A stretch of 51,397 nt of DNA, taken from the IMG/VR virus record IMGVR_UViG_3300045988_030125; one strand, 5' to 3'. Positions within the stretch are counted from its first letter, which is position 1; each line of letters opens with the position of its first letter. The notes beneath the pieces were generated by a model, which saw only the letters and a program-made list of their open reading frames with translations, did no database searches and was not told the DNA's origin. This stretch comes from a virus. Below are positions 1 to 44,931 of this stretch, one piece after another. A program made the position numbers and the translations under genes.

Positions 1-55
1 TACTGATAAGCTACCAGGGTCACCGCCCTAACCAATAACCAAACAAACAAACAAA
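1..55. repeat. 55-bp terminal identity, left copy (identical to 51343-51397)
   Basis: Direct comparison shows that the first 55 nt equal the last 55 nt. This length matches a common de Bruijn k-mer overlap for a circular contig. Confidence 0.95.
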
Positions 56-59
56 CAAA
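40..59 (+). repeat. (CAAA)x5 microsatellite
   Basis: Read directly: CAAACAAACAAACAAACAAA. Confidence 0.9.
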
Positions 60-96
60 GCAAAGACGCCGGCGTCAGGGCACACACACCAACCCA

Positions 97-225
97 GGGC
101 CTGTCGAACGTAACCGTAGGGGCCAGCTAACTCGTGTTAGCCAGGCTTTCGTGACCCGCCCCTGTCGAACGTACTAAGGGGGCTGTCGCACGCTAACCGA
201 GGCCCTGCCCTGTCGAACGTAACCT
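97..225 (+). repeat. Cluster of direct repeats with core CCTGTCGAACGTA (three exact cores plus one variant)
   Basis: CTGTCGAACGTA starts at 101, 162 and 210. The variant GCTGTCGCACGCTAACC lies at 182-197. A further copy of CTGTCGAAC starts at 51279. Confidence 0.85.
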
Positions 226-234
226 ACCCCGTGA

Positions 235-289
235 TGTGACGCAGAACACACCTTATCAAGTTGACAGCCACTTAGCGCCTAGCTAAGCT
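235..289 (+). promoter_or_regulatory. Promoter P1 with upstream CRP-like box
   Basis: TGTGA-cgcaga-ACACA lies at 235-250. TTGACA is at 261-266, followed by a 17-nt spacer and TAAGCT at 284-289. Confidence 0.6.
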
Positions 290-295
290 TGAGTT

Positions 296-573
296 ATCGG
301 CAAGGGAAACCCGGCAAGGACGCGAAAGCGACCGCCGAGACGGCCCGGGCGAGGACCTTAGTCCGAATGGTCTTTGTGAACTGAATTACACACAGGGGCG
401 AGGCTTGCACCTGCCGAAAAGTTGGCAACTTTTCCATCGCCTGTGTCGGCTAGGATGCGAACACGCTGAAACTTTACGTTCGGTCAGTAAAATAAGCGTG
501 CACACATGCCTAGGGCCGCTAGAATGACTTTGTACTGACAAAGTGGCGAGTTCAATTCTCGCACGGCTCACCA
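296..573 (+). ncRNA. Candidate structured non-coding RNA ending in a tRNA-like T-arm/acceptor/ACCA
   Basis: The region lies downstream of P1 and has no credible ORF. It contains hairpins GGGAAACCC (304-312) and CGCGAAAGCG (321-330), an 8-bp stem 416-423/427-434 and a long-range stem ACACAGG/CCTGTGT (about 389-395/440-446). It ends with T-arm GCGAG-TTCAATT-CTCGC (546-562), then ACGGCTC, A and CCA (563-573). Confidence 0.45.
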
Positions 574-591
574 AGATTCTGAACAACCAAA

Positions 592-647
592 TGTGACGCG
601 GTTCACACGCTGTCAGCTTGACACGGCCCCCAGGGGTCCGATAGACT
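592..647 (+). promoter_or_regulatory. Promoter P2 with perfect CRP-like box
   Basis: TGTGA-cgcggt-TCACA lies at 592-607. TTGACA is at 618-623, followed by an 18-nt spacer and TAGACT at 642-647. Confidence 0.65.
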
Positions 648-686
648 GTAGTCACAAGATCAAACCACACCGAAGGGTTACCTACC

Positions 687-911
687 ATGCTCATGCTGTC
701 CGATCCCACCACCAACCGCCTGCCCGTGCTCCCCCTGCCGTTCCCCGACTACAGCTGCCTTAAGCACTTCTTCTCGCACGTGCCCGGCTTCAGCACCTAT
801 GACGCCGCCAAGTGGGCACAGATCACCGAACGCGCGTGCTACGGCGACAGGGTGGCCCTCGCCCGCCTTGACGCGGCTGGGTTCTCCCTGATGGTCACCA
901 CGCGGCTCTGA
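687..911 (+). CDS. hypothetical early protein (74 aa), paralog of 2219-2452
   Basis: The ORF is in the track. GAAGGG lies 9 nt upstream of the ATG. The C-terminal half aligns by eye with the 2219-2452 product. Confidence 0.7.
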   Translation: MLMLSDPTTNRLPVLPLPFPDYSCLKHFFSHVPGFSTYDAAKWAQITERACYGDRVALARLDAAGFSLMVTTRL

Positions 912-919
912 CCCCCCTC

Positions 920-946
920 GCCCGGCCCCCTCACCCGGGGCCGGGC
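920..946 (+). terminator. GC-rich hairpin after the first early gene (no U-tract)
   Basis: GCCCGGCCCC (920-929) pairs with GGGGCCGGGC (937-946) around a 7-nt loop. Confidence 0.5.
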
Positions 947-974
947 ACCCTCCCTCCACACAACCAAGGAAGCA

Positions 975-1247
975 TTGTGTACAACCCGAACTTGCCCCCT
1001 TATCCGCGGCCTCAAGGGCGACTTTGAGGTCATTATCGACACGGGCGAGGTGCTTAACGTGACCAGCAACCCCCGGCTTGCTTGCTACTTGGCGCGCTCG
1101 CTTGACCTGCCTATGCCCCGCGCTGACTGCCTTGTCGAGTTGGTTCACAGCGCCTGTCGTGGCAGCGTGCGTGTCGTCGAACTACTAGCACGGATGGACT
1201 GGCAAATTATTCAGCTTGACGCCGATACCTTGCCGTTCACGGTGTGA
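975..1247 (+). CDS. hypothetical protein (90 aa, TTG start)
   Basis: The ORF is in the track, with SD AAGGAAG at 966-972. Confidence 0.6.
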   Translation: MCTTRTCPLIRGLKGDFEVIIDTGEVLNVTSNPRLACYLARSLDLPMPRADCLVELVHSACRGSVRVVELLARMDWQIIQLDADTLPFTV

Positions 1248-1298
1248 TCCACATCACAACCTAACAAGTTGACAACTACCTAGCACCGTTGCTAGGCT
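1243..1298 (+). promoter_or_regulatory. Promoter P3 with perfect CRP-like box
   Basis: TGTGA-tccaca-TCACA lies at 1243-1258. TTGACA is at 1269-1274, followed by an 18-nt spacer and TAGGCT at 1293-1298. Confidence 0.65.
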
Positions 1299-1335
1299 GA
1301 AAGCACAAACCAAACCACACAGAAAGTGAAACACC

Positions 1336-1509
1336 ATGGCACTCCAATACTGGAATGACTGCTTGCAAGCCGCGCGCGACTTTGCCGGTGATTCCGCTGG
1401 CGACTTCGTCATTGAGGCACTGGCATCTGAGCTTTTCGACTGGTGCCCGAATCAGACACCTACGTTGAGCGAGAGTACACAGACGCCGAGATTCAAGCGT
1501 GCGACGTGA
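1336..1509 (+). CDS. hypothetical 57-aa ORF, possibly the N-terminal part of a frameshifted 1336-1805 product
   Basis: I translated this by hand; it is below the track cutoff. The leader AGAAAGTGAAACACC precedes the ATG strongly. The N-terminal 35 aa look protein-like, but the tail looks off-frame. Confidence 0.55.
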   Translation: MALQYWNDCLQAARDFAGDSAGDFVIEALASELFDWCPNQTPTLSESTQTPRFKRAT

Positions 1510-1805
1510 GCACCTGGCAAGATACGTGCGAGCCTACCGAAGATGGTACCCTGCTGTATGAACGCTGGTTCCAGTCCCCGCTGGGACCGGTTCACGTGGG
1601 AGCGTGGGAGAACACCGACGGGCGCGTGTCGCTCACGCTTAGCACGGTGCGGGACGGCGGTTATGACATGTGGGAGCCTACCTCCAAGACCATCGCCGAC
1701 AGCGACAAGCCCTCCACGTGGGGCGAGTTTGACCGGGCCTACGGTTCTCGCAAAGCTTGGGAGTCCGATCTGGCTACTATCGCCGATACGATCCGCGAGT
1801 CTTGA
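1443..1805 (+). CDS. hypothetical protein (120 aa from a GTG lacking an SD)
   Basis: The ORF is in the track and its composition is protein-like. The frame opens at 1431 and has no RBS of its own. Confidence 0.6.
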   Translation: MPESDTYVEREYTDAEIQACDVSTWQDTCEPTEDGTLLYERWFQSPLGPVHVGAWENTDGRVSLTLSTVRDGGYDMWEPTSKTIADSDKPSTWGEFDRAYGSRKAWESDLATIADTIRES

Positions 1806-1817
1806 CACAACTCAACA

Positions 1818-1867
1818 TCCCCGTATCGATGGTGATATAAAGCCCGGTTCAACCCCGGGACGGGGAA
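1818..1867 (+). ncRNA. tRNA-like minihelix B (acceptor stem plus T-arm, about 50 nt)
   Basis: TCCCCGT (1818-1824) pairs with ACGGGGA (1860-1866). The T-arm is CCCGG-TTCAACC-CCGGG (1843-1859). A small stem carries the loop GATGGT. A hairpin follows at 1871-1890. Confidence 0.55.
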
Positions 1868-1919
1868 CGATGCCCCTCAAAACGAGGGCACAAACCAACA
1901 AACCGAAGGGTTAATTATC

Positions 1920-2183
1920 ATGGCACACACCTACAAGACCGATCCCGACTGGGTTAAGGAAGCACGCGGTGAAGCGTGGCACCCCTCCCAGTTCGCCCGC
2001 TACGGTAGCGGGTACACCCGCCACACGCGGGACCTGAGCAAGCGTATTCGCGCCAGGGAGCGTAGGGAGATGGACCGCATCATGCGTGACCTGGAAGCGT
2101 GGGAGGGCTACTACCCGACGGGTAACAGCGTGATTAGGGAGTTCGATACCGAGACCAACGCTCACGCTTGGATGGACTACTAG
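1920..2183 (+). CDS. hypothetical protein (87 aa)
   Basis: The ORF is in the track, preceded by a CA-rich leader with GAAGGG. Confidence 0.7.
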   Translation: MAHTYKTDPDWVKEARGEAWHPSQFARYGSGYTRHTRDLSKRIRARERREMDRIMRDLEAWEGYYPTGNSVIREFDTETNAHAWMDY

Positions 2184-2218
2184 GCCAACAGCCCGTCCCC
2201 ACACAGAAAGCCACAATT

Positions 2219-2452
2219 ATGTCCTACCGCACGTGTACAATAACAGACCATGTTCTGTACAATTTCGAGACGTTTCCCATCTATAACGGTGTAGTTGACC
2301 ATAAGTCGCTTTGCCGTTGGTTTGGGAGCATCCCCGGCTATGACGTGTTTAAGGCCGCGAAAATGGCGACTGCGACACAGCTTGTGCTTTTGGGAGACGC
2401 AAAACAAATGCGCGTGCTCACACAAGCTGGGTTTGACCTGACATTCAACTAA
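2219..2452 (+). CDS. hypothetical protein (77 aa), paralog of 687-911
   Basis: I moved the track ORF start to ATG 2219, which follows CACAGAAAG. The product resembles the 687-911 product by eye. Confidence 0.7.
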   Translation: MSYRTCTITDHVLYNFETFPIYNGVVDHKSLCRWFGSIPGYDVFKAAKMATATQLVLLGDAKQMRVLTQAGFDLTFN

Positions 2453-2483
2453 TCAACAACACAGAAAGACAAAGACAAAGACA

Positions 2484-2870
2484 ATGGGTATTCTTGACAA
2501 TATCAGCAGCGCCGCGTATGACATTATGGCGGGCCGTGTTGGCGATGGGTTCCTGCCTGTCGCTAAGAATTTCAACATCGCTGCGAATCACAACCACCCG
2601 ATTCGCAACAGCCGATTTGACGTTTATTCCTACACAACGCGCGTTGCAGTAGTGAACAAGAATGAGAATGGGGACTGGGACACTTTCGTACACCGTGATG
2701 CGTTCCATCATTCGACAACTACAAGCCGACACGTGCGCCAGTTCCTGTCGGCAATGGCTGGCCGTGTTGACTGGGACGCGCTTTACAAGGCGTGCAACAA
2801 AGCTTGTAAAGATGAAACTATTAACGGTAATGGTAACCCATTCGTCAATGTGAGCCAGTTCACGTACTAA
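2484..2870 (+). CDS. hypothetical protein (128 aa)
   Basis: The ORF is in the track, preceded by the leader CACAGAAAGACAAAG. Confidence 0.75.
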   Translation: MGILDNISSAAYDIMAGRVGDGFLPVAKNFNIAANHNHPIRNSRFDVYSYTTRVAVVNKNENGDWDTFVHRDAFHHSTTTSRHVRQFLSAMAGRVDWDALYKACNKACKDETINGNGNPFVNVSQFTY

Positions 2871-2903
2871 CAGCTTGACAACAACCAGCCAACCAGATAC
2901 TAT
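2849..2903 (+). promoter_or_regulatory. Promoter P4 with CRP-like box
   Basis: TGTGA-gccagt-TCACG lies at 2849-2864. TTGACA is at 2875-2880, followed by a 17-nt spacer and TACTAT at 2898-2903. Confidence 0.6.
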
Positions 2904-2944
2904 TAAGTCATAGGCAAACCACACAACAGAAAGCGAGAACTCAA

Positions 2945-3124
2945 ATGCGAATCAACAAGGACACTATGACCGTTATCAAGGCCGCTACCGCCGCTAAGAT
3001 TACCTTCCGAAAGATGGGAGCCGACTACGGCGATAATCCGAGTGTGCTTGCCGCTATTGACGCGGTGGTTACTGCCCTGGATGGGCTGTCGGATGCAGTA
3101 GTCATGTCAGAAATTGAGGGCTGA
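2945..3124 (+). CDS. hypothetical protein (59 aa)
   Basis: I translated this by hand; it is below the track cutoff. The leader CAGAAAGCGAGAAC precedes the ATG. Confidence 0.65.
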   Translation: MRINKDTMTVIKAATAAKITFRKMGADYGDNPSVLAAIDAVVTALDGLSDAVVMSEIEG

Positions 3125-3127
3125 GCA

Positions 3128-3322
3128 ATGGAACTAACTAATTCTCAACTTGACTTTATCCACATCGCACTTGAAGCGCATATTGAAGCACTCAATAATG
3201 AGCTTAGGGTTGTCAACGAACCACTCGTTACAGAGACAATTCAAGCGCGCATTGACGGTATTCTCCCTGTGCTTGAAGCTCTTGAGTCAGGTGACTACAC
3301 TCTCATTCTGGAAGAATACTAG
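3128..3322 (+). CDS. hypothetical protein (64 aa)
   Basis: The ORF is in the track and is tightly packed against the upstream ORF. Confidence 0.7.
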   Translation: MELTNSQLDFIHIALEAHIEALNNELRVVNEPLVTETIQARIDGILPVLEALESGDYTLILEEY

Positions 3323-3337
3323 GCCCTAGCAAGGGTA

Positions 3338-3386
3338 TCCCTAGCCTGACGGTAGGTAAATGCAGGTTCAACCCCTGCCTAGGGAG
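3338..3386 (+). ncRNA. tRNA-like minihelix C, structural homolog of element B
   Basis: TCCCTAG (3338-3344) pairs with CTAGGGA (3379-3385). The T-arm is GCAGG-TTCAACC-CCTGC (3362-3378). A small stem carries the loop GACGGT. A hairpin follows at 3391-3409. Confidence 0.55.
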
Positions 3387-3437
3387 CTGAGCTAACCAAG
3401 GTGGTTAGCCTACAACAACAACCGGAAGGTGAAAACC

Positions 3438-3902
3438 ATGTGCAATGAATACGCCTACAAGGTCGCTAAGGCCCTCGTTTGGCCCGAACTTACTGTTGAG
3501 TTTGCAGCGGCAGTGGTTAACGGCTGGGTGAACGGTAGTACCATTTGGGACGAAACTTGTACACTCACGGGTGGCTGGGGAAATGATGCAGCGGTGTTCC
3601 TTGCATGGGACAAGATGGGACGTCCCGATGAATCGGAATACCTGGACCCTGGCTACGATCTGGAACGGGACCCTGCCTGTCGCCGTAACATGGTCGCTAA
3701 TGCCCGCATCTCTGCTATGGCTGAGTGTGTGGCAGATGCACTATACAGCGTTGTTGACGAAATTATCGTGAACGAGGGCTGGAAGTGCATCCCCGCTACC
3801 GAAATTGAAACTGATATGCACGGCATTGGGTGGTTGGAGGAGGGCTGTGACGCCCTTGACTGCCATGTCGAAAGCTACCTGTTTAAGCCAGATGGGAGGT
3901 GA
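3438..3902 (+). CDS. hypothetical protein (154 aa)
   Basis: I moved the track ORF start to ATG 3438, which follows GGAAGGTGA. Confidence 0.75.
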   Translation: MCNEYAYKVAKALVWPELTVEFAAAVVNGWVNGSTIWDETCTLTGGWGNDAAVFLAWDKMGRPDESEYLDPGYDLERDPACRRNMVANARISAMAECVADALYSVVDEIIVNEGWKCIPATEIETDMHGIGWLEEGCDALDCHVESYLFKPDGR

Positions 3903-3904
3903 CC

Positions 3905-4417
3905 ATGCCTAGGGTAGAAAACTATAAGTTTGAGGCATTGGACGAAAACTATCAGGTAGATACGTACAATACCGCTAACATTTGCTCCAACACACTTATC
4001 CTTACACGCAAGCCAGAAATAGATATTTATTGGCTTTATTGCTGCTTACCCGAACATGGCTTTGTTTGGGTTACGCACTGGAAGATTTATACCTGCAAAG
4101 AGTTTGCCGAGTATATGCGTGAATACAAGGAAACATACAAGCGTTACCCGGAAAGAATCTGGGGGCACAAAATTAAGGAAGGAAGTAACATGTTGCCTAA
4201 TTGGTATGGTATCCCCGGTATCGGCTTTGAGTGGTGTGGTTCCCAAAATGACCCTATGTTGCACTACAAGGGGCATGTGTTTAACGCCCATGACATGCAA
4301 GATGGGTTGTGGGAGAACTATCGGGACGATTTAGAAATGGGCTATACGTCCCTTGAGTGGGAGGAATATGTCAGGGACAACGCAACTAACTACCTTGACG
4401 ATGCACTATTTTTTTGA
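3905..4417 (+). CDS. hypothetical protein (170 aa)
   Basis: The ORF is in the track. ATG 3905 follows GGGAGGTGA. Confidence 0.75.
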   Translation: MPRVENYKFEALDENYQVDTYNTANICSNTLILTRKPEIDIYWLYCCLPEHGFVWVTHWKIYTCKEFAEYMREYKETYKRYPERIWGHKIKEGSNMLPNWYGIPGIGFEWCGSQNDPMLHYKGHVFNAHDMQDGLWENYRDDLEMGYTSLEWEEYVRDNATNYLDDALFF

Positions 4418-4437
4418 GTGGGAGGAATGGTAACAAC

Positions 4438-4602
4438 ATGATTATGCTAGGTATTATTGGACTCGTTGTCGCTGTTGGGCTTATCTATATGGGCTTTAAG
4501 GGTGACTCTAACCTGACATGCTTCCTGGGTATCCTGTGTGGCGGGATGGTGGGACTCTGTAGGGTTATTCATATTCTTTACGTAATGGGGATGGAGAGTT
4601 AA
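4438..4602 (+). CDS. small membrane protein (54 aa, two hydrophobic helices)
   Basis: The ORF is in the track. ATG 4438 lies 10 nt after GGGAGGAA. The sequence is hydrophobic. Confidence 0.6.
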   Translation: MIMLGIIGLVVAVGLIYMGFKGDSNLTCFLGILCGGMVGLCRVIHILYVMGMES

Positions 4603-4603
4603 C

Positions 4604-4984
4604 ATGTGGGAAGAATTGCTGAGCGTCATTACTGACCGTTATTACCTGCTAGAATCTATGCAGGAAAACGTGGCTGGTTACATTGATCCTGACAAGGGCT
4701 GGGACCTGACACGTGTTAACCCTTGGTTTACCGAGCATGGCTATGAGTTTGTGGGTCTGCTTGACCTGTTCTCTGAAAACGAGGCAAGCGGTGTCTACGT
4801 GAACGTGGATGGTTACGTATGGCGTTGTCGCACTAATGCCGCTGACAATAGCATCTATTGGTACTGGGAGTCCAATAACGAGGGCGTTACCTTGGATGAA
4901 CTGCGCTTCCTGCATGGGTACGTGCACCAATTCATCTGGGACCAAGACGAACAAACGTGTAACGTAGTTCACATGGCAGAATGA
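4604..4984 (+). CDS. hypothetical protein (126 aa)
   Basis: The ORF is in the track, with SD GGAGAG. Confidence 0.75.
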   Translation: MWEELLSVITDRYYLLESMQENVAGYIDPDKGWDLTRVNPWFTEHGYEFVGLLDLFSENEASGVYVNVDGYVWRCRTNAADNSIYWYWESNNEGVTLDELRFLHGYVHQFIWDQDEQTCNVVHMAE

Positions 4985-5041
4985 CCAACAACCTGATAGA
5001 CTAGACACAACAAACCAACCAAGCGAAAGCGAGAAACAAAA

Positions 5042-5560
5042 ATGACCATCGAACTTACCCAGACTGAACACGCGCACACTGTCTATGTTCCCGACGAATG
5101 GGAGTACAACGGACAGACTTTCCAAGTGTGGCAGGATGACTGTGCAGAGTGCCCTATCAAGCAGCTTGACGATGCAAGCGCACTTTGCGTTATCGGTGGG
5201 CCACGTGGATGTATCCTCCACAACCCAGCCGACACTAATTGCCCCGCAATGTGGGAGTTTGATAACTTCCATGAAGAACACGGGCGCATCCTCACACAGG
5301 AAGAATGGGAGAATCTTTGCCCCGATTACTGGGTGTATGTTGGTTGGCACGCTATGGATGCTGAGCGTCTGTTTGCAGCAGCGTTCGACAAGGAAGTGTT
5401 CTCTACCAACCCTTGCGAGTCATGGGTGCATGAGTACTCTATGTGGGCAGACGGCTACGTCTGGGTAGTGTCGAACGAAACTACTGGGGACTGCCTGGCG
5501 GGTATCTATGCCGACAGCGAGGAAGATGCTATCCGAAACTACATCGAAAACTATATGTGA
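5042..5560 (+). CDS. hypothetical protein (172 aa)
   Basis: The ORF is in the track, preceded by the leader GCGAAAGCGAGAAAC. Confidence 0.8.
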   Translation: MTIELTQTEHAHTVYVPDEWEYNGQTFQVWQDDCAECPIKQLDDASALCVIGGPRGCILHNPADTNCPAMWEFDNFHEEHGRILTQEEWENLCPDYWVYVGWHAMDAERLFAAAFDKEVFSTNPCESWVHEYSMWADGYVWVVSNETTGDCLAGIYADSEEDAIRNYIENYM

Positions 5561-5562
5561 GA

Positions 5563-5718
5563 ATGATGGAAATTAAGGTTTGCGCGGTACTACTAATCGC
5601 ACTCGGCGTGTTCGCCCTTATTTCCTACAGTTTTACAGGCCATGCGCAGATGGTGTTCTATGGGACTATGGGCGTAACGGCTGGGACAATGACACTACTA
5701 CTCTACGAGGGAGAATGA
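5563..5718 (+). CDS. small membrane protein (51 aa)
   Basis: This uses the in-frame ATG of track ORF 5443-5718. The sequence is hydrophobic and the RBS is weak. Confidence 0.5.
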   Translation: MMEIKVCAVLLIALGVFALISYSFTGHAQMVFYGTMGVTAGTMTLLLYEGE

Positions 5719-5719
5719 C

Positions 5720-6031
5720 ATGATTCAGATTAACAACCTTGAAGCACTCAAAGACTTTGACACCGCCGTCGCGTACCGTGCCAAGGATTTGGGGCTTGAG
5801 CCGGGAGAATGGGACTTTGTCACTTGCAACGGCGCCCTCCAACTTTATGAGCACTACGAGGAAATGGCCGCTGATACGATGGATGGTATCGTATCGCCAA
5901 TTGAACTACTCGGCAAGGAATACAAGCCTAGCGACATTGCTAGGGAGGTAGACCCTGCTGGTTGGCAAGCGTTTGTCGAACTGGGCATTGCATTTGCCAT
6001 TGCTAACGATCTGGTTAGGAAGATCGTTTAA
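5720..6031 (+). CDS. hypothetical protein (103 aa)
   Basis: The ORF is in the track. Confidence 0.75.
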   Translation: MIQINNLEALKDFDTAVAYRAKDLGLEPGEWDFVTCNGALQLYEHYEEMAADTMDGIVSPIELLGKEYKPSDIAREVDPAGWQAFVELGIAFAIANDLVRKIV

Positions 6032-6132
6032 TGTTCGCGGTCGCCTACTATGCGCTATTCTTTATAGCTGCACTCATCCCTACGTCCATTTACTGCCACC
6101 ACAAAGAAAGTGAGAACAACAATGAAGACTGA
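6031..6132 (+). CDS. possible 33-aa hydrophobic peptide
   Basis: I translated this by hand. Its start overlaps the upstream stop as TAATG. It overlaps the next start by 11 nt. Confidence 0.3.
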   Translation: MFAVAYYALFFIAALIPTSIYCHHKESENNNED

Positions 6133-6457
6133 GGCCCTGGTTAGCAAGATCAACAAGCTCAACGCCGAGATTAGCGCACTGACCGAAGCGCGGGATGAGC
6201 TTAAGGCTCAGCTATGCGAACAGTTTAACCCCGGCGACAAGATCACCGTGGGAGCCACTAGGGTCACTTTCGCGGTGCGCAAGACTATCAACCCAGCAGC
6301 GGTCGAAAAACTTGCAGCGTTTAAGAAACTGCCCAAGGCCGTGCGTGAGTCAGTCTACGACAAGCCCAAGCTCAACACGCGCAAGCTTGCAGCATTGGAG
6401 CTTATCGATCTGGGACCTGCAACCACCGTGTCGGACGTGTACGCGACATTCCGATGA
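6122..6457 (+). CDS. hypothetical coiled-coil protein (111 aa)
   Basis: I moved the track ORF start to ATG 6122, which follows AGAAAGTGAGAAC. Confidence 0.75.
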   Translation: MKTEALVSKINKLNAEISALTEARDELKAQLCEQFNPGDKITVGATRVTFAVRKTINPAAVEKLAAFKKLPKAVRESVYDKPKLNTRKLAALELIDLGPATTVSDVYATFR

Positions 6458-6681
6458 AGTGGAGCCAGTATGGGACGGGCAACAGTGAATACACTGTCCG
6501 ACAGGTTGAAGCTGTTGCCCGATCCCTGGAAGATAACGAGCTGGTGGAGTACTCCACCATGTGGCACGAAGCTGTACGCCAAATGCGGGCCGCTGAAATT
6601 ATCCACCAAAACCTTGGCGTTGGAGCCGAAATAGAATTGCCTAACGGCATGAGTATCTATATTGAAAGTGAGCGCAAATGA
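6454..6681 (+). CDS. hypothetical protein (75 aa)
   Basis: The ORF is in the track. Its start overlaps the upstream stop as ATGA. Confidence 0.7.
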   Translation: MKWSQYGTGNSEYTVRQVEAVARSLEDNELVEYSTMWHEAVRQMRAAEIIHQNLGVGAEIELPNGMSIYIESERK

Positions 6682-7217
6682 GTCTGAAAACTATTGCGGG
6701 ACAGGATTACGAGGATGTGTGCGTCTTCCAGTCCGACAACGGTGGGATCTACGTTGCCATGCGGGACAGAGATACGCCTGAGCCGGTTGAACTAGTCGGG
6801 GATTCCGATAAGTTCACCTACGGCTGTGTCGAAAGCGACAGTGAGTGCACGCTTTTCAAGCGCATCATGCGGTTCTGTGAAGTTCACGATCTGGCCCTGT
6901 ATGACGTGGATGTTACGGATATCTTTGAGGGCTACTGCAAGTGCTTCAAGTTCCCTGGTTGGCAAGACTATGACTACCATAACGAGCGCGGTGTGCTGTT
7001 CATGGTGCATAAGATGCTGGGAACCGCTAAACAGTGGATGGACTACAGCGACATGTGGGACATGAAAGACGTGTGGTCCATCATTGACCAAGCCAAGGGC
7101 GTGACTGTCGATGCAGTCTACGCTGAAAGTGGTCGGGACGCAGTGGAACTGTACCTCGACAAGGGGGACAAAGCATCCCTCAAGACCATTATTGACGACG
7201 CACTAGGGAGGTTCTAA
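6678..7217 (+). CDS. hypothetical protein (179 aa)
   Basis: The ORF is in the track. Its start overlaps the upstream stop as ATGA. Confidence 0.8.
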   Translation: MSLKTIAGQDYEDVCVFQSDNGGIYVAMRDRDTPEPVELVGDSDKFTYGCVESDSECTLFKRIMRFCEVHDLALYDVDVTDIFEGYCKCFKFPGWQDYDYHNERGVLFMVHKMLGTAKQWMDYSDMWDMKDVWSIIDQAKGVTVDAVYAESGRDAVELYLDKGDKASLKTIIDDALGRF

Positions 7218-7630
7218 TGTTTTCTGACTGGGTAGATAGACAAACGTTCAACTTGAATGAGCTGAGTGAGGATATTTTCAGGGAGCAATTTGACTCCAAC
7301 AGTATCGAAGGCTATCAGCGGTCCAAGGATAGCGAGACAGATGCAGAGAACGCGTGGGCATACTGGGACGATAATAATCTGCTGTATGACTTCCTTGAAA
7401 ACCTGTTTGAGACTCTCGGCTTTGTCGAATGGGACGATAAGCCGAGCGACGGACGTTTCATCTGGATTCAGGATTACGAGATGCTGGTTGTCAAGTCTAG
7501 CGATATTGCACTGCCTACCGAGGTTGTCGCAACATTCGACCGTGACTCTCTGTATGAGTGCCAGTATGCACAGGGCGTTGTCCGAGACGGTGTGTTCTAC
7601 TGTACCGTCGTTGCAAGGGAGCTTGACTAA
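7217..7630 (+). CDS. hypothetical acidic protein (137 aa)
   Basis: The ORF is in the track. Its start overlaps the upstream stop as TAATG. Confidence 0.8.
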   Translation: MFSDWVDRQTFNLNELSEDIFREQFDSNSIEGYQRSKDSETDAENAWAYWDDNNLLYDFLENLFETLGFVEWDDKPSDGRFIWIQDYEMLVVKSSDIALPTEVVATFDRDSLYECQYAQGVVRDGVFYCTVVARELD

Positions 7631-7788
7631 TGGACAATGCTTATATCCAAGTGCTAGAAGATGGGACAGGTATCGTTGTGACACATGACTTTGATATGGG
7701 TATTGGTGTCATTGCGGGACCACGCATCCTGGCATACCTGACCAAGGAACAAGTCAACATGATTAGGAGGATAAAGAATGAATCTTGA
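7630..7788 (+). CDS. hypothetical protein (52 aa)
   Basis: I translated this by hand. Its start overlaps the upstream stop as TAATG. Confidence 0.5.
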   Translation: MDNAYIQVLEDGTGIVVTHDFDMGIGVIAGPRILAYLTKEQVNMIRRIKNES

Positions 7789-8117
7789 AGAAATGACCAA
7801 GTAGTACAACCTTGCCTGTGCTAAGGCAGTGCAAGACGCTATCCACGAGCTTGCCGAAAAGTGGGGTCAAGATGCTATTAACGATCTGAATGAATCAGAT
7901 TACAAGGCTTGCGTTGAATTGTACGATGGGAGCATGTGTATCTATGCGCGTGTCGCTAAGGACGATTACTACGGCCCCCATTCGGTATGAAGATGATGAA
8001 CTAAATGCCGACGTACAGGAAGCGTTTGATAAGCTGGGCTTCCAGGTTGTTCTCAACGCAATGATTCATTACGGGATGGAAAGCACTGATGAACCACTGT
8101 ATTGGAGGATCTACTAA
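7778..8117 (+). pseudogene. interrupted gene with an in-frame TAG at 7802-7804 and a +1 frame change at a C5 run (7975-7979)
   Basis: A strong SD (AGGAGG) precedes ATG 7778. Protein-like sequence continues through the TAG. The C-terminal half lies in the frame of track ORF 7890-8117. Confidence 0.5.
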
Positions 8118-9533
8118 ATGACATTCAAGCCGCGCCACTACCAGGAACGTGTGCTGGAAGGGCTGGCAAACAGCAAAACGCCGTACACGGGCCTGGTAGG
8201 CGCGGGCCTAGGTACGGGCAAGACGGCAATGAGCGTGTGGAACGCGCTTAACGCTTTCGGTAGCACCATTGGGGACCAGATTATCCTGATCGTTGCCCCT
8301 GTCCGTACTGAGTCTGGCTGGCGCTCGCACTGGAAGACGCTTGCGGGCATCGACATGCGCACCTTGTCGGGGAAGAAAACAAAGGCCGCGCTTGCAGTGT
8401 GGGACGATCTTGAAAACCACGTCCCTGGTGTCTACTTCATCACATGGGAGCTTATGCGCTCACGTAACAAGGAACAGCGCTGGGACGGGCGCGCCAAGAA
8501 GATGGTGTACAAGTCCATGGCCCAGCCGTTCTATGGTGTCGAATTTGGGATGGTCATTGCCGATGAATGGCACCGCGCGTGCAACCATTCCTCGCTCAAC
8601 TTTGACGTAGCGCGACACATTAAGGCACAGTACCGCCTTGCGCTGAGTGCGACACCAGCGGGGAACAAGCCTTGTAACATTTGGGCAGCATTGAAGTTCT
8701 TGTGGCCTAACCATTACGGTGGATACTGGGACTTCTGTGAGAAGTTTTTTAAGGTTGAGCTTAACCCTTGGAGCGCATACTGGAAAGACTTTTCGGGAGA
8801 AAAGTACCCTGGCATGGTGCGTCGTGGCGCGCCGTCCTATCACGAGGTGAGCCAGGCTGAGGCCAACCCTGAGCTTCCTGGTGTCGTGATCCACCGTGTC
8901 GAAGTGGAGCTGACTAGGCAGCAGCGCAAACTTTACAACGAGCTGGAACAGAAGGCGCTCACGTTCCTAGGTGACCATCCGTTGGCGCTGTCGATCCCGA
9001 TGGAACTCGACACCCGCTTGCGTCAGATGACCCTGGGAGTACCTTCATTTAATGAAGACATGACTGTCGATTACAAGGAAGACTGCAAGTCGTCCAAGCT
9101 CGACGCCATGATGGACATTATCGCCGACCTCCCAGAGAATGAGCCTGTCGTTGTGTGGGTGCATAGCCAGAAGTTCATTAAGGCGGCGCTGCACCGTCTG
9201 AAGAAAGCTGGGATCAAAGCCATTGAAGTCTCTGGCAAGTCTCGTGGTGACTTCCAAGACATGATTAACGGCGACGTGCGCGTCATTGTCGCACAGCATG
9301 AAGCCATGTCAGAAGGAGTTGACGGTTTGCAGCGGGTGTGCCATACTGAGATATGGCTGAGCCAGTCAAACTCCCTGGTAATCAATGAGCAAGCAACGGG
9401 ACGACTCAACCGGCAGGGCCAGACTACAGTCGTTAACCGCTTCCTAATTCAGGCTACCAACACCGTGGACGACCGTGTTCTGGGACGCTTGCAGGAACGA
9501 TTCGACAAGCTCAAGGCATCCGGCCTTATCTGA
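8118..9533 (+). CDS. SNF2/DEAD-like superfamily-2 helicase
   Basis: The product has Walker A GLGTGKT, a DEWH box (VIADEWHR) and C-terminal helicase motifs (471 aa). Confidence 0.9.
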   Translation: MTFKPRHYQERVLEGLANSKTPYTGLVGAGLGTGKTAMSVWNALNAFGSTIGDQIILIVAPVRTESGWRSHWKTLAGIDMRTLSGKKTKAALAVWDDLENHVPGVYFITWELMRSRNKEQRWDGRAKKMVYKSMAQPFYGVEFGMVIADEWHRACNHSSLNFDVARHIKAQYRLALSATPAGNKPCNIWAALKFLWPNHYGGYWDFCEKFFKVELNPWSAYWKDFSGEKYPGMVRRGAPSYHEVSQAEANPELPGVVIHRVEVELTRQQRKLYNELEQKALTFLGDHPLALSIPMELDTRLRQMTLGVPSFNEDMTVDYKEDCKSSKLDAMMDIIADLPENEPVVVWVHSQKFIKAALHRLKKAGIKAIEVSGKSRGDFQDMINGDVRVIVAQHEAMSEGVDGLQRVCHTEIWLSQSNSLVINEQATGRLNRQGQTTVVNRFLIQATNTVDDRVLGRLQERFDKLKASGLI

Positions 9534-44447: not shown

Positions 44448-44469
44448 TTTGTTTCTCCTTTCTTTCGCG

Positions 44470-44540
44470 CTCCCAGACTAGGACTCGAACCTAGTCCGAC
44501 AGGGCCAAAACCTGCCGTGCTGCCATTACACTATCTGGGA
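44470..44540 (-). tRNA. tRNA-Gln (anticodon TTG)
   Basis: I folded the cloverleaf by hand. The acceptor is TCCCAGA/TCTGGGA, the anticodon loop TTTTGGC and the T-arm CTAGG-TTCGAGT-CCTAG. It is 71 nt long with no encoded CCA. Confidence 0.88.
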
Positions 44541-44611
44541 TAAACCCAGGCAGTCCCGGAGGACGCCTGGGAACTAAGTGCTGCATATGCAACAGTAGGC
44601 AATACTGCCCG

Positions 44612-44684
44612 TCGGAATGGTGAGACTCGAACTCACGGCCCCCTGGTCCCAAACCAGGTGCGCTACCTACTGCGCTACATTCCG
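44612..44684 (-). tRNA. tRNA-Pro (anticodon TGG)
   Basis: I folded the cloverleaf by hand. The acceptor is CGGAATG/CATTCCG, the anticodon loop TTTGGGA and the T-arm GTGAG-TTCGAGT-CTCAC. It is 73 nt long. Confidence 0.9.
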
Positions 44685-44846
44685 TTGGAAGGGGATGCTA
44701 TTCGGACGACAGAAACACACACTAAAAAGAGTCGTCCCTAGGGTGCTACCCCGCACGTGATCCCCCGATCACGACGGCTGGTCCATCCTCTTGGCCAAAG
44801 AGGCAGGCGACAAGGCCTAATCATCCAGCATTGTCCAGCCGCTTGG

Positions 44847-44931
44847 TGGTCCCCTTGGTGAGAGTCGAACTCACACTCCTTTCGGAACTCGATTTTGAGT
44901 CGAGCGCGTCTGCCTGTTCCGCCACAAGGGG
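44847..44931 (-). tRNA. tRNA-Leu (anticodon CAA), type II with a long variable arm and encoded CCA
   Basis: I folded the cloverleaf by hand. The acceptor is CCCCTTG/CAAGGGG, the anticodon loop CTCAAAA, the variable arm TTCCGAAAGGAGT and the T-arm GTGAG-TTCGACT-CTCAC. It ends in ACCA. Confidence 0.88.

What the first reader, a model, noticed from the sequence alone, without database searches (positions are those of the whole stretch)
3338..3386. Second copy of the tRNA-like minihelix (element C) with compensatory stem changes
TCCCTAG (3338-3344) pairs with CTAGGGA (3379-3385). The T-arm is GCAGG-TTCAACC-CCTGC (3362-3378), the inner stem carries the loop GACGGT, and G3386 follows.

The element begins 16 nt after the stop of 3128-3322. 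Hairpin 3391-3409 and the leader of gene 3438 follow it.

An upstream CCCTAG (3324-3329) could pair instead with CTAGGG, which would allow a structural switch or a longer 63-nt degenerate cloverleaf.

B and C are only about 50 nt each, with the same loops but different base-paired stems. That argues against chance and against simple terminators.
Basis: partly seen in the sequence, partly recalled or inferred. Interest (0 to 1): 0.72.

Follow-up and report, generated by a model that had tools for sequence, protein, structure and literature searches.

The report
tRNA-like punctuation marks in phage operons
A 49-nt RNA shaped like a tRNA without its anticodon arm recurs between the early genes of a group of ~50-kb phages from human oral and gut Actinomyces-type bacteria. 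It is most likely a cutting signal that lets host tRNA-processing enzymes split long phage messages into separately stabilised pieces.

Summary
Window 3338-3386 (+) folds as a 7-bp acceptor stem, a 3-bp D-like hairpin (loop GACGGT), a 5-nt linker and a 5-bp T arm (loop TTCAACC), followed by discriminator G. It has one paralogue in the window, element B at 1818-1867.

It belongs to a real RNA family. A covariance model finds 60 copies (48 distinct) on related ~50-kb phage contigs, with up to 7 copies per 6 kb. Of all base-pair cells, 99% pair. 13 of 15 pairs show two-sided compensatory changes. G.U pairs occur on the gene strand only. The tRNA elbow nucleotides (G18, G19, G53, T54, T55, A58; C56 and C61 in 47/48) are kept.

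ARAGORN calls none of the 60 model-matched copies a tRNA, and Rfam 15 matches none of them.

Every copy is intergenic and sits a median 13 nt after a stop codon. It lies between an upstream and a downstream hairpin, neither followed by a T run, and is followed by a CA-rich leader, an RBS and the next gene.

Best reading (inferred, not shown): it is a pre-tRNA mimic cut by host RNase P at the 5' end and by RNase Z or a similar nuclease at the 3' end. This would punctuate the polycistronic early mRNA, with the hairpins protecting the new ends. The closest known analogues are the plant mitochondrial t-elements.

The parts
2875..2903 (+). Promoter-like site TTGACA-N17-TACTAT, the likely start of the transcript that carries element C
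   Evidence: 10/12 consensus match; the pattern TTGACA-N17-TANNNT occurs 3 times against 0.32 expected. Function is inferred.
3128..3322 (+). Upstream small ORF (64 aa) whose stop codon TAG precedes the module
   Evidence: A homologue (67% nt identity) lies upstream of the element in L001 and L034. The gene is absent upstream of the element in L006, L022, L012 and L021.
3323..3336 (+). Upstream hairpin GCCCU-AGCA-AGGGU, ending 1 nt before the element; proposed 3'-end protector of the upstream mRNA after cleavage
   Evidence: The fold is. An equivalent hairpin (z < -1.5) occurs in 77% of 47 distinct contexts and ends a median 2 nt before the element. Its sequence differs between relatives while the stem is kept.
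3338..3386 (+). Element C, a tRNA-like structure without an anticodon arm: acceptor 3338-3344/3379-3385; D-like stem 3345-3347/3354-3356 with loop 3348-3353 (GG at 3351-3352); linker 3357-3361; T stem 3362-3366/3374-3378; T loop 3367-3373; discriminator G3386
   Evidence: covariance-model score 71 bits; covariation; invariant elbow nucleotides
3387..3390 (+). 3' trailer CUGA. C3387 is invariant (48/48) right after the discriminator, and CCA is never encoded.
   Evidence: columns 59-62: R, C, K, R
3391..3409 (+). Downstream hairpin GCUAACCA-AGG-UGGUUAGC with no T run after it; proposed 5'-end protector of the downstream mRNA
   Evidence: An equivalent hairpin occurs in 94% of 47 contexts and starts a median 3 nt after the discriminator. 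It is 100% identical in L001 although the flanking genes are only 67-79% identical.
3410..3437 (+). Unstructured CA-rich leader with Shine-Dalgarno GGAAGG (3424-3429)
   Evidence: A similar leader (…CAACAAACCGAAAGGU…) follows most copies.
3438..3902 (+). Downstream gene (154 aa, MCNEYAYK…; no Pfam or PHROG family)
   Evidence: Start codons lie a median 48 nt after the discriminator.
1818..1867 (+). Element B, the paralogous copy: UCCCCGU AUC GAUGGU GAU AUAAAG CCCGG UUCAACC CCGGG ACGGGGA A
   Evidence: 64.3 bits
1871..1890 (+). Downstream hairpin of element B (UGCCCCUC-AAAAC-GAGGGCA), followed by a leader and gene 1920-2183
44469..44540 (-). The phage's own tRNA-Gln(UUG). Its acceptor end UCCCAGA/UCUGGGA with G73 and CCA-less trailer CGC resembles the elements, so it is the likely evolutionary source.
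   Evidence: The covariance model matches it at 23 bits with the D and anticodon arms treated as an insertion.

Best explanation
Element C is one copy of a conserved structured RNA. It is a ~49-nt mimic of a CCA-less precursor tRNA that keeps the acceptor/T-arm stack and the D-loop/T-loop elbow but has lost the anticodon arm. It lies inside the polycistronic early transcript, between cistrons.

Proposed mechanism (inferred):
1. Host RNase P cuts at U3338. The upstream mRNA then ends in hairpin 3323-3336, which blocks 3' exonucleases.
2. RNase Z, or another 3' pre-tRNA nuclease, cuts after G3386. The downstream mRNA then begins about 4 nt before hairpin 3391-3409, which blocks 5'-end-dependent decay. 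An open CA-rich leader and RBS follow.

On this reading, hairpin + tRNA-like structure + hairpin + leader is a self-contained intercistronic processing and stabilisation cassette. It would be tRNA punctuation used by a phage.

What is shown: the structure, its selection at the RNA level on the gene strand, its tRNA-type invariant nucleotides, and its stereotyped intergenic context.

What is inferred: transcription through the element, the two cleavages, the enzymes responsible, and the stabilising role of the hairpins.
For: 1. The structure is real.
- 60 model hits (48 distinct) occur on 25 sources.
- 99.0% of 720 base-pair cells pair, and 13 of 15 pairs show two-sided changes. Slid controls pair at 27-60%, and 0 of 500 shuffles reach the observed values.
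- RNAalifold independently predicts the same three helices.
- The D-like stem was never imposed when sequences were selected, yet it pairs in 100% of cells with 3 of 3 pairs covarying.

2. Selection acts on the RNA of the gene strand. U.G occurs 19 times at one D-stem pair, and G.U occurs in the acceptor and T stems. On the other strand these would be A.C mismatches.

3. The nucleotides that build the tRNA elbow recognised by tRNA-processing enzymes are invariant or nearly so: G18, G19, G53, T54, T55, C56 (47/48), A58 and C61 (47/48). The 7 + 5 bp acceptor/T stack is kept.

4. At the orthologous site, in front of the same downstream gene (79% identical), L012 and L021 carry a copy in which all three stems are replaced by compensating pairs: ACCCGGC/GCCGGGT, CAT/ATG and AAGGG/CCCTT.

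5. The context is stereotyped across 47 distinct settings.
- The element sits a median 13 nt after a stop codon.
- An upstream hairpin is present in 77% and ends a median 2 nt before position +1.
- A downstream hairpin is present in 94% and starts a median 3 nt after the discriminator.
- The next start codon lies a median 48 nt downstream.
- No T runs follow the hairpins.
- Arrays of 7 (L015, L018) and 6 (L028) copies lie one per intergenic gap.

6. CCA is never encoded. The trailer is R-C-K-R, like the phage's own CCA-less tRNA-Gln (G|CGC) and tRNA-Pro (A|CGG). That tRNA-Gln ends 21 nt before a start codon, so the phage already co-transcribes tRNAs with mRNA.

7. Published background.
- Pre-tRNA mimics that lack the anticodon stem-loop are RNase P substrates, provided the T loop is intact (PMC4693268).
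- Plant mitochondrial t-elements with the same GGTTCRANYCC arm direct RNase P and RNase Z cleavage that forms mRNA ends (PMC1920247).

8. In L028, L018 and L015 one slot of the array holds a ~70-nt long form with an anticodon-like arm but a 4-6-nt loop. Decoding is therefore dispensable.
Against: - There are no expression or end-mapping data, so no cleavage has been shown.
- The fold is not thermodynamically exceptional for a single sequence: z = -1.7 for C and -1.3 for B.
- An upstream hairpin 0-4 nt from the cleavage site could hinder RNase P, which normally contacts a single-stranded leader.
- Position +1 is U rather than the usual G, and N(-1) is not uniform (T 26, A 17, G 9, C 2).
- The invariant C after the discriminator is unexplained. 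In some systems C74 is part of the anti-determinant for RNase Z.
- Element B in the window lacks a convincing upstream hairpin.
- The seed sequences were chosen with a descriptor that required full pairing in two of the three stems, and the large alignment is fitted to the model. The paired percentages for those two helices are therefore inflated. The pair-type diversity and the D-stem result are not affected.
- The host, and hence its RNase repertoire, is only inferred.
Confidence: 0.6

Rival explanations
1. The excised ~50-nt mini-tRNA is itself the functional product. It would act as a decoy, sponge or regulator for a host factor that recognises the acceptor end and elbow of tRNAs. Candidates are a tRNA-targeting antiphage toxin or the tRNA maturation enzymes. 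On this view mRNA cleavage is only the release mechanism.
For: - The outer acceptor end UCCC/GGGA is kept in most copies (U1:A72 in 40/48; C2:G71 in 48/48), and the C after the discriminator is kept in 48/48. The inner acceptor pairs vary freely. This is more sequence constraint than a bare cleavage signal seems to need.
- High copy number in early, strongly promoted operons would give a high dose early in infection.
- The element is more conserved than the flanking genes: 98% against 67-79%.
Against: - No partner protein was identified. No phage gene with a recognised tRNA-related domain was found among the ~40 window proteins scanned.
- The flanking hairpins and their tight spacing to both ends of the element are explained by mRNA-end protection, not by a decoy role.
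- There is no anticodon loop, so the element cannot be a decoy for anticodon nucleases.
- This reading is not exclusive of the processing model.
Confidence: 0.17
2. The primary role is at the DNA level. The conserved cassettes would be linker sequences at which related phages recombine, shuffling early-gene modules, or they would be small mobile repeats.
For: - Element C plus its downstream hairpin is 98-100% identical between phages whose flanking genes are only 67-79% identical.
- Gene content changes exactly at the element. Gene 3128-3322 is absent upstream in L006, L022, L012 and L021, and a different gene follows the element in L002, L003, L004, L009, L011 and L013.
- The acceptor stem resembles a 7-bp terminal inverted repeat.
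Against: - A recombination linker needs sequence identity. It does not need compensatory base-pair replacement, G.U pairs on one strand only, or invariant tRNA tertiary nucleotides.
- No target-site duplications are seen around the copies.
- Recombination at these sites is better seen as a by-product of their conservation.
Confidence: 0.1
3. The element works by alternative folding. It would be a transcription terminator or attenuator, or a structural switch between the upstream CCCTAG and the acceptor stem that controls the downstream gene.
For: - In the window, CCCTAG 3324-3329 duplicates the 5' acceptor strand.
- Three consecutive hairpin-type structures lie in front of an RBS.
Against: - Only 8 of 54 contexts allow the alternative pairing.
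- No T run follows any hairpin, and the terminator scan finds nothing on the + strand at B or C.
- The upstream hairpin differs in sequence between relatives independently of the acceptor stem.
- The RBS lies in an unstructured CA-rich leader that is not sequestered in the folds.
Confidence: 0.05
4. The elements are decaying tRNA pseudogenes or tRNA-gene fragments (for example att-site remnants) with no function.
For: - The acceptor end and D loop are similar to the phage tRNA-Gln.
- Long forms with degenerate anticodon arms exist.
Against: - 48 distinct variants all keep three helices through compensatory change and keep the elbow nucleotides invariant or nearly so.
- The placement relative to stop codons, hairpins and start codons is stereotyped.
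- The elements are more conserved than neighbouring genes.
- Both acceptor strands are present, unlike 3'-half att fragments.
Confidence: 0.03

Closest known systems
Plant mitochondrial t-elements (tRNA-like processing signals; Forner et al. 2007, PMC1920247), and mitochondrial tRNA punctuation in general
   Same: Both are non-decoding tRNA-like folds with an intact GGTTCRANYCC T arm. Both are embedded in mRNA precursors at cistron or mRNA boundaries. Their ends coincide with mRNA ends made by RNase P (5') and RNase Z (3'), and the excised t-elements receive C/CA additions.
   Different: - The elements here are in a bacteriophage and depend on bacterial enzymes.
- They are a uniform, covarying family with a precise loss of the anticodon arm, not a set of heterogeneous degenerate cloverleaves.
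- They are flanked by dedicated hairpins on both sides.
- Cleavage has not been demonstrated here.
mascRNA / MEN-beta tRNA-like structures of MALAT1 and NEAT1 (Rfam RF01684), and MHV68 tRNA-like/pre-miRNA units
   Same: A tRNA-like structure within a longer transcript is used as an RNase P/RNase Z cleavage signal. The neighbouring structure defines the stability or fate of the flanking RNA (my own knowledge).
   Different: Those systems are eukaryotic or herpesviral, and their structures keep a (shortened) anticodon arm. No Rfam family matches the phage elements even at E <= 10 (window) or E <= 1 (L015, L018, L028).
Minimal RNase P substrates: acceptor/T-arm minihelices and external-guide-sequence complexes lacking the anticodon stem-loop
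   Same: They share the architecture that suffices for recognition: a 12-bp acceptor/T stack with an intact T loop. Deleting the anticodon arm is tolerated or even beneficial (PMC4693268).
   Different: Those are engineered substrates, whereas these are natural. The phage elements also keep a D-like hairpin with G18/G19.
RNase III processing sites in the T7 early polycistronic mRNA
   Same: They occupy the same functional niche. They are intercistronic structured sites in a phage early transcript, cut by a host RNase, and they leave hairpin-protected ends (my own knowledge).
   Different: The fold is different (a long irregular duplex) and the enzyme is different.
Canonical tRNA / phage tRNA-Gln
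   Same: They share a 7-bp acceptor stem, a 5-bp T stem, a UUCRAYY T loop, and G18, G19, G53, T54, T55, C56, A58 and C61. The acceptor end U1:A72 with UCCC/GGGA and a purine discriminator matches the phage's tRNA-Gln.
   Different: There is no anticodon arm and no nucleotides 8-9, and the D stem has only 3 bp. ARAGORN and the Rfam tRNA model detect none of the 60 model-matched copies.
tmRNA tRNA-like domain
   Same: Both have an acceptor stem, a T arm and a D-loop analogue, with no anticodon.
   Different: tmRNA has a tag reading frame, pseudoknots, an encoded or added CCA end and a G3:U70 alanine identity pair. None of these is present here (position 3:70 is C:G), and ARAGORN finds no tmRNA.

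Membership tests
Canonical tRNA (Rfam RF00005 / ARAGORN) | Cloverleaf with an anticodon arm and a 7-nt anticodon loop | tested here: not met
   Only 17-19 nt (up to 24) lie between the acceptor and T stems. They form a 3-bp hairpin plus a 5-7-nt linker. ARAGORN calls only the three true tRNAs at 44.4-44.9 kb and none of the 60 model-matched copies in 26 loci.
Canonical tRNA (Rfam RF00005 / ARAGORN) | Score at or above the family threshold | tested here: not met
   No RF00005 hit at the elements even at E <= 10 (window 1-9000) or at E <= 1 (L015, L018, L028)
Canonical tRNA (Rfam RF00005 / ARAGORN) | 7-bp acceptor stem, 5-bp T stem, T loop UUCRANY, and conserved G18, G19, G53, T54, T55, C56, A58 and C61 | tested here: met
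   Column counts over 48 distinct copies: G18, G19, G53, T54, T55 and A58 in 48/48; C56 and C61 in 47/48
tRNA-like mRNA processing signals (t-elements / tRNA punctuation) | Non-decoding tRNA-like fold with a conserved T arm, under selection | tested here: met
   (covariation)
tRNA-like mRNA processing signals (t-elements / tRNA punctuation) | Located at cistron boundaries on the transcribed strand of a polycistronic unit | tested here: met
   The elements sit a median 13 nt after a stop codon and 48 nt before the next start codon, on the same strand as the genes. There is one per intergenic gap in the arrays, and no terminators lie between them. Transcription itself is inferred.
tRNA-like mRNA processing signals (t-elements / tRNA punctuation) | mRNA 3' and 5' ends coincide with the element's 5' and 3' ends; cleavage by RNase P and RNase Z | not testable with these tools
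   No transcriptome or biochemical data were available
mascRNA-menRNA (RF01684) and other curated tRNA-like RNA families in Rfam 15 | Match to the covariance model | tested here: not met
   no match to any of the 4227 families at the elements
tmRNA | tRNA-like domain joined to a tag reading frame and pseudoknots; alanine identity pair G3:U70 | tested here: not met
   ARAGORN finds no tmRNA. Pair 3:70 is C:G in 42/48 copies. The element is a closed 49-nt unit.
Intrinsic (Rho-independent) terminator | G+C-rich hairpin followed by a T run on the transcribed strand | tested here: not met
   The terminator scan of 1-9000 finds no + strand site at B or C. The only hit there is the T arm of B read on the opposite strand. 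The tails after the hairpins are ACAA/CUAC-type.
MITE/REP-like repeated DNA element | Terminal inverted repeats with target-site duplication; conservation at the DNA level without strand-specific RNA pairing rules | tested here: not met
   No duplicated flanks are seen. G.U pairs are tolerated on the gene strand only, and loop nucleotides of tRNA type are invariant.

The most novel reading that the evidence does not exclude
After excision and CCA addition, the elements accumulate early in infection as anticodon-less mini-tRNAs. They would act as molecular decoys for host factors that read the tRNA acceptor end and elbow. Examples are acceptor-end-modifying abortive-infection toxins of the nucleotidyltransferase type known from Actinobacteria, or RNase P/CCA-adding enzyme themselves, which would throttle host tRNA maturation. 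This would make them a new class of RNA-based phage counter-defence or host-takeover factor, produced by a phage version of tRNA punctuation.
Probability: 0.1. Interest if true: 0.88.

Novelty: new variant of a known kind. Interest (0 to 1): 0.7.

Why it matters
If the processing model is right, this would be tRNA punctuation operating in a bacteriophage. That strategy is known from mitochondria, from MALAT1/NEAT1 and from a herpesvirus. I found no description of it in a phage in Rfam 15 or in the searched literature.

The cassette has a compact, modular design: 3' stabiliser hairpin, cleavable tRNA mimic, 5' stabiliser hairpin, open leader. Synthetic biologists reinvented much the same design for tRNA-based transcript insulation.

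It would give a directly testable handle on how phages of poorly studied oral Actinomycetota set the stoichiometry and stability of early gene products.

It also defines a new, well-supported structured-RNA family of 48 variants that current tRNA finders and Rfam miss. Such elements may be widely overlooked in phage genomes.

The elements also mark the points at which early-gene modules are exchanged between related phages.

Tried and rejected
- **ARAGORN and Rfam.** ARAGORN and Rfam gathering thresholds on the window find only the three true tRNAs. Rfam at E <= 10 on 1-9000 and at E <= 1 on L015, L018 and L028 gives nothing at the elements.
- **BLAST against cultured phages.** Megablast and blastn of 2400-6400 against 50,697 phage records give no match. 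The early region has no cultured relative there.
- **Thermodynamics alone.** z = -1.3 to -1.7, so this is not decisive.
- **Structural switch / 63-nt cloverleaf.** Rejected: only 8 of 54 contexts allow it.
- **Terminator reading.** Rejected.
- **Phage-encoded tRNA-processing or tRNA-binding enzymes.** None was found among ~40 window proteins scanned with Pfam and PHROGs. Proteins next to the arrays in L015 and L018 have no Pfam family.
- **Genome-collection scan.** 8 of 14 loci (Planctomycetia, Myxococcota, Uhrbacteria, Treponema, Kitasatospora, Chloroflexota, Solirubrobacteraceae, Deltaproteobacteria, and others) are chance pattern matches. They have no significant model hit and no tRNA, and the Kitasatospora 23-bit hit lacks a T stem on inspection.
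- **Related phages.** Actinomyces phage xhp1 and saliva Caudovirus D_HF4_2 share a protein with the window phage. With filters off they carry no element.
- **Literature.** Five full-text searches found no description of this motif. A 2023 catalogue of 10,006 candidate viral RNAs mentions tRNA-like candidates only generically.
- **Not run.** The metagenome-collection scan, because the viral and genome collections already gave enough diversity.

Full report
**What is in the sequence.** Reading 3300-3440 confirms every coordinate of the finding.
- Acceptor stem: TCCCTAG (3338-3344) pairs with CTAGGGA (3379-3385).
- Inner hairpin: CCT/AGG stem with loop GACGGT (3345-3356).
- Linker: TAAAT.
- T arm: GCAGG-TTCAACC-CCTGC (3362-3378).
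- Discriminator: G3386.
- Context: the element starts 16 nt after the stop of ORF 3128-3322. Hairpin 3391-3409 follows, then a CA-rich leader with GGAAGG, then ATG 3438.
- The only paralogue in the window, element B, is at 1818-1867: TCCCCGT ATC GATGGT GAT ATAAAG CCCGG TTCAACC CCGGG ACGGGGA A.
- B and C share the loops and the outer UCCC/GGGA. They differ on both sides at 8 of 15 base pairs.

**Is it more than chance?**
- Folding alone is not decisive. The MFE and centroid structures are the proposed three-way fold, but z is only -1.73 for C and -1.27 for B.
- A strict descriptor (7/7 acceptor pairs, 5/5 T-stem pairs, TTCRANN loop) is expected 0.05 times in a random 51-kb sequence. It finds B and C, plus one unrelated site at 36468-36428(-) that the model does not match.
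- With a covariance model built later, C scores 71.0 bits (E 5e-18) and B 64.3 bits. With filters off, nothing else in the window scores above 23 bits.

**Relatives.**
- The early region has no BLAST match among 50,697 phage records.
- Two pattern scans of the viral-contig collection returned 24 loci, most from contigs of 46-53 kb (a few from shorter contigs of 16-29 kb). Several come from human-microbiome samples.
- A scan of 185,579 species genomes returned true copies only on mostly phage-sized contigs binned to uncultured Actinomyces (4), Atopobium and Rothia MAGs. The other 8 loci were chance matches.
- One window protein is 59% identical to a protein of Actinomyces phage xhp1. The amidase/choline-binding lysin is closest to lysins of phages of Eggerthella, Propionibacterium, Bifidobacterium and Corynebacterium.
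- The host is therefore probably an oral or gut member of the Actinomycetota. This is an inference.
- xhp1 itself and a related saliva phage carry no element.

**The structure is under selection as RNA.**
- Thirty-five distinct sequences from a descriptor scan were reduced to 29, which align almost without gaps (A2).
- RNAalifold independently predicts the three helices.
- Model R1 then found 60 copies with E < 1e-6, of which 48 are distinct.
- On that alignment 99.0% of 720 base-pair cells are standard pairs. 13 of 15 pairs have two-sided changes, in 160 cells. No shuffle out of 500 reaches the observed values. Sliding the 3' partners by 1-3 columns drops pairing to 27-60%.
- Caveat: the seed descriptor enforced pairing in the acceptor and T stems, and the alignment is model-fitted. 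The D-like stem was never enforced, yet it pairs in 100% of cells with all three pairs covarying.
- U.G occurs 19 times in the D stem and G.U occurs in the other stems. These would be A.C on the opposite strand, so the selected molecule is RNA of the gene strand.
- At the orthologous site, in front of the same downstream gene (79% identical), L012 and L021 have all three stems replaced by compensating pairs.

**What kind of structure.** Column counts over the 48 variants show the following.
- G18, G19, G53, T54, T55 and A58 are invariant, and C56 and C61 are kept in 47/48. This is the set of nucleotides that builds the D-loop/T-loop elbow of tRNAs.
- The discriminator is always a purine, and the next base is always C.
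- The element is a tRNA that has lost only the anticodon arm and nucleotides 8-9.
- Its outer acceptor end (U1:A72, UCCC/GGGA, purine 73), its D loop (AAUGG) and its CCA-less trailer resemble the phage's own tRNA-Gln at 44469-44540(-). That tRNA is the only true tRNA the model matches significantly (23 bits).
- In L028, L018 and L015 one slot of the array holds a ~70-nt long form with an anticodon-like stem but a 4-6-nt loop. ARAGORN reports the L028 copy as 'tRNA-???'.
- This looks like an intermediate form and shows that decoding is dispensable.
- ARAGORN calls none of the 60 model-matched copies, and no Rfam 15 family matches any element.

**Context.**
- The window looks like a whole siphovirus-type genome of 52.5% G+C. 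Early and replication genes lie on the + strand up to about 19 kb, and structural and lysis genes lie on the - strand.
- Promoter-like TTGACA-N17/18-TAnnnT sites lie at 261, 618, 1269 and 2875. B and C each lie about 450-550 nt downstream of one of them, after two small ORFs.
- Across 47 distinct contexts:
  - The element starts a median 13 nt after a stop codon.
  - A hairpin precedes it in 77% (z < -1.5) and ends a median 2 nt before position +1.
  - A hairpin follows it in 94% and starts a median 3 nt after the discriminator.
  - The next start codon is a median 48 nt downstream, behind a CA-rich unstructured leader and an RBS.
  - No hairpin is followed by a T run.
- In L015 and L018 (seven copies each) and L028 (six copies), one copy occupies each intergenic gap between small genes of unknown function.

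**Mechanism proposed.**
- The anatomy is what a processing cassette should look like.
- RNase P recognises the 12-bp acceptor/T stack and the elbow. According to the literature it does not need the anticodon arm but does need an intact T loop (PMC4693268).
- Cutting at U3338 would leave the upstream mRNA ending 1 nt after hairpin 3323-3336.
- A 3' pre-tRNA nuclease would cut after G3386. RNase Z acts on CCA-less precursors (my own knowledge), and CCA is never encoded in any of the 48 distinct variants.
- The downstream mRNA would then start 4 nt before hairpin 3391-3409. That geometry is typical of 5' stabilisers.
- The phage's true tRNA-Gln already lies 21 nt upstream of a start codon, so tRNA-linked mRNA ends are plausible in this phage.
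- Plant mitochondrial t-elements are the closest documented precedent (PMC1920247).
- All cleavage steps are inferred. I give this model 0.6.

**Rivals.**
1. The excised mini-tRNA is the active product, as a decoy or regulator. The conserved UCCC/GGGA end and the invariant C74 hint at more constraint than a cleavage signal needs. No partner is known, and the flanking hairpins are not explained (0.17; not exclusive of the main model).
2. A DNA-level recombination linker or mobile repeat. The element is 98% identical where the flanking genes are 67-79% identical, and gene content changes exactly at the element. Compensatory changes and strand-specific G.U pairs argue that this is a by-product (0.10).
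3. A switch, attenuator or terminator. Only 8 of 54 contexts allow the alternative pairing, and there are no T runs (0.05).
4. Functionless tRNA debris. This is contradicted by the covariation and the stereotyped placement (0.03).

**Novelty.**
- tRNA-like processing signals are a known kind: mitochondrial punctuation, t-elements, mascRNA and MHV68.
- A uniform, anticodon-arm-less family used repeatedly between phage early genes and bracketed by stabiliser hairpins was not found in Rfam 15 or in five full-text literature searches. A 2023 catalogue of viral RNA candidates mentions tRNA-like candidates only generically.
- I rate it a new variant of a known kind, with interest 0.7.

Noticed in passing
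window 513-573 (+): This is a second class of tRNA-like element ('element A'): GGGCCGC UAGAAUG, a 7-bp stem with a tetraloop, T arm GCGAG-UUCAAUU-CUCGC, then ACGGCUC and an encoded ACCA. It has no D arm. Its fold has z = -3.35, with 0 of 200 shuffles as good. Homologues with compensatory changes in the middle and T stems occur in L003, L012 and L022. It ends an ORF-poor, highly structured stretch (~290-575) downstream of promoter-like site 261-289. Its only Rfam echo is a sub-threshold match, on the opposite strand, to a plastid 5'UTR family.
   Followed up: partly
L028 3003-3073 (-); L018 ~2793-2858 (+); L015 ~2112-2178 (+): This is a ~70-nt 'long form' of the element. It keeps an anticodon-like stem but has a 4-6-nt loop (CUGAGU, UUAGC, GCGC). 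It occupies one slot of the intergenic arrays, with the same trailer (G-C-[CU]-G-G) and downstream hairpin. ARAGORN calls the L028 copy 'tRNA-???' with a 2-nt anticodon. It is a possible evolutionary intermediate between a tRNA and the 49-nt element.
   Followed up: partly
window 101-112, 162-173, 210-221 (+): There are three exact direct repeats of CTGTCGAACGTA near the left end, about 50-60 nt apart and just upstream of the first promoter-like site. Six matches with up to 1 mismatch are found in the window, against 0.2 expected. They may be a protein-binding array such as an operator, origin or packaging site.
   Followed up: no
window 261-289, 618-647, 1269-1298, 2875-2903 (+): Four promoter-like sites have a perfect TTGACA -35 hexamer and a TAnnnT -10 hexamer, all in the first 3 kb on the + strand. 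Elements B and C each lie about 450-550 nt downstream of one, after two small ORFs.
   Followed up: partly
window 44469-44931 (-): This is a cluster of tRNA-Leu(CAA), tRNA-Pro(UGG) and tRNA-Gln(UUG). The Gln and Pro genes lack an encoded CCA (trailers G|CGC and A|CGG), whereas Leu encodes ACCA. tRNA-Gln ends 21 nt before the start codon of gene 44447-44115, so tRNA 3' processing would create that mRNA's 5' end.
   Followed up: partly
window 3128-3322 and 3438-3902, compared with L002, L003, L006, L012, L021 and L022: Element C marks a mosaic junction. The upstream gene 3128-3322 is absent in L006, L022, L012 and L021. In L002, L003, L004, L009, L011 and L013 a different gene (MS[YH][STN]ELPNWYG…) follows the element. 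The element and its downstream hairpin stay 88-100% identical in the closely related copies L001, L034 and L006.
   Followed up: partly
window 1543-1914 (+): This mechanical ORF of 123 aa runs straight through element B and is probably spurious. The arrangement seen in relatives, with a stop codon 8-16 nt before the element, matches the frame that ends at TGA 1803-1805 (ORF 1443/1506-1805).
   Followed up: partly
all 48 distinct copies; window C3387 and C1868: The base right after the discriminator is C in 48 of 48 variants, and the trailer is R-C-K-R. CCA is never present. It is unexplained. It could be a partial RCCA contact for RNase P or a determinant for the 3' nuclease.
   Followed up: no
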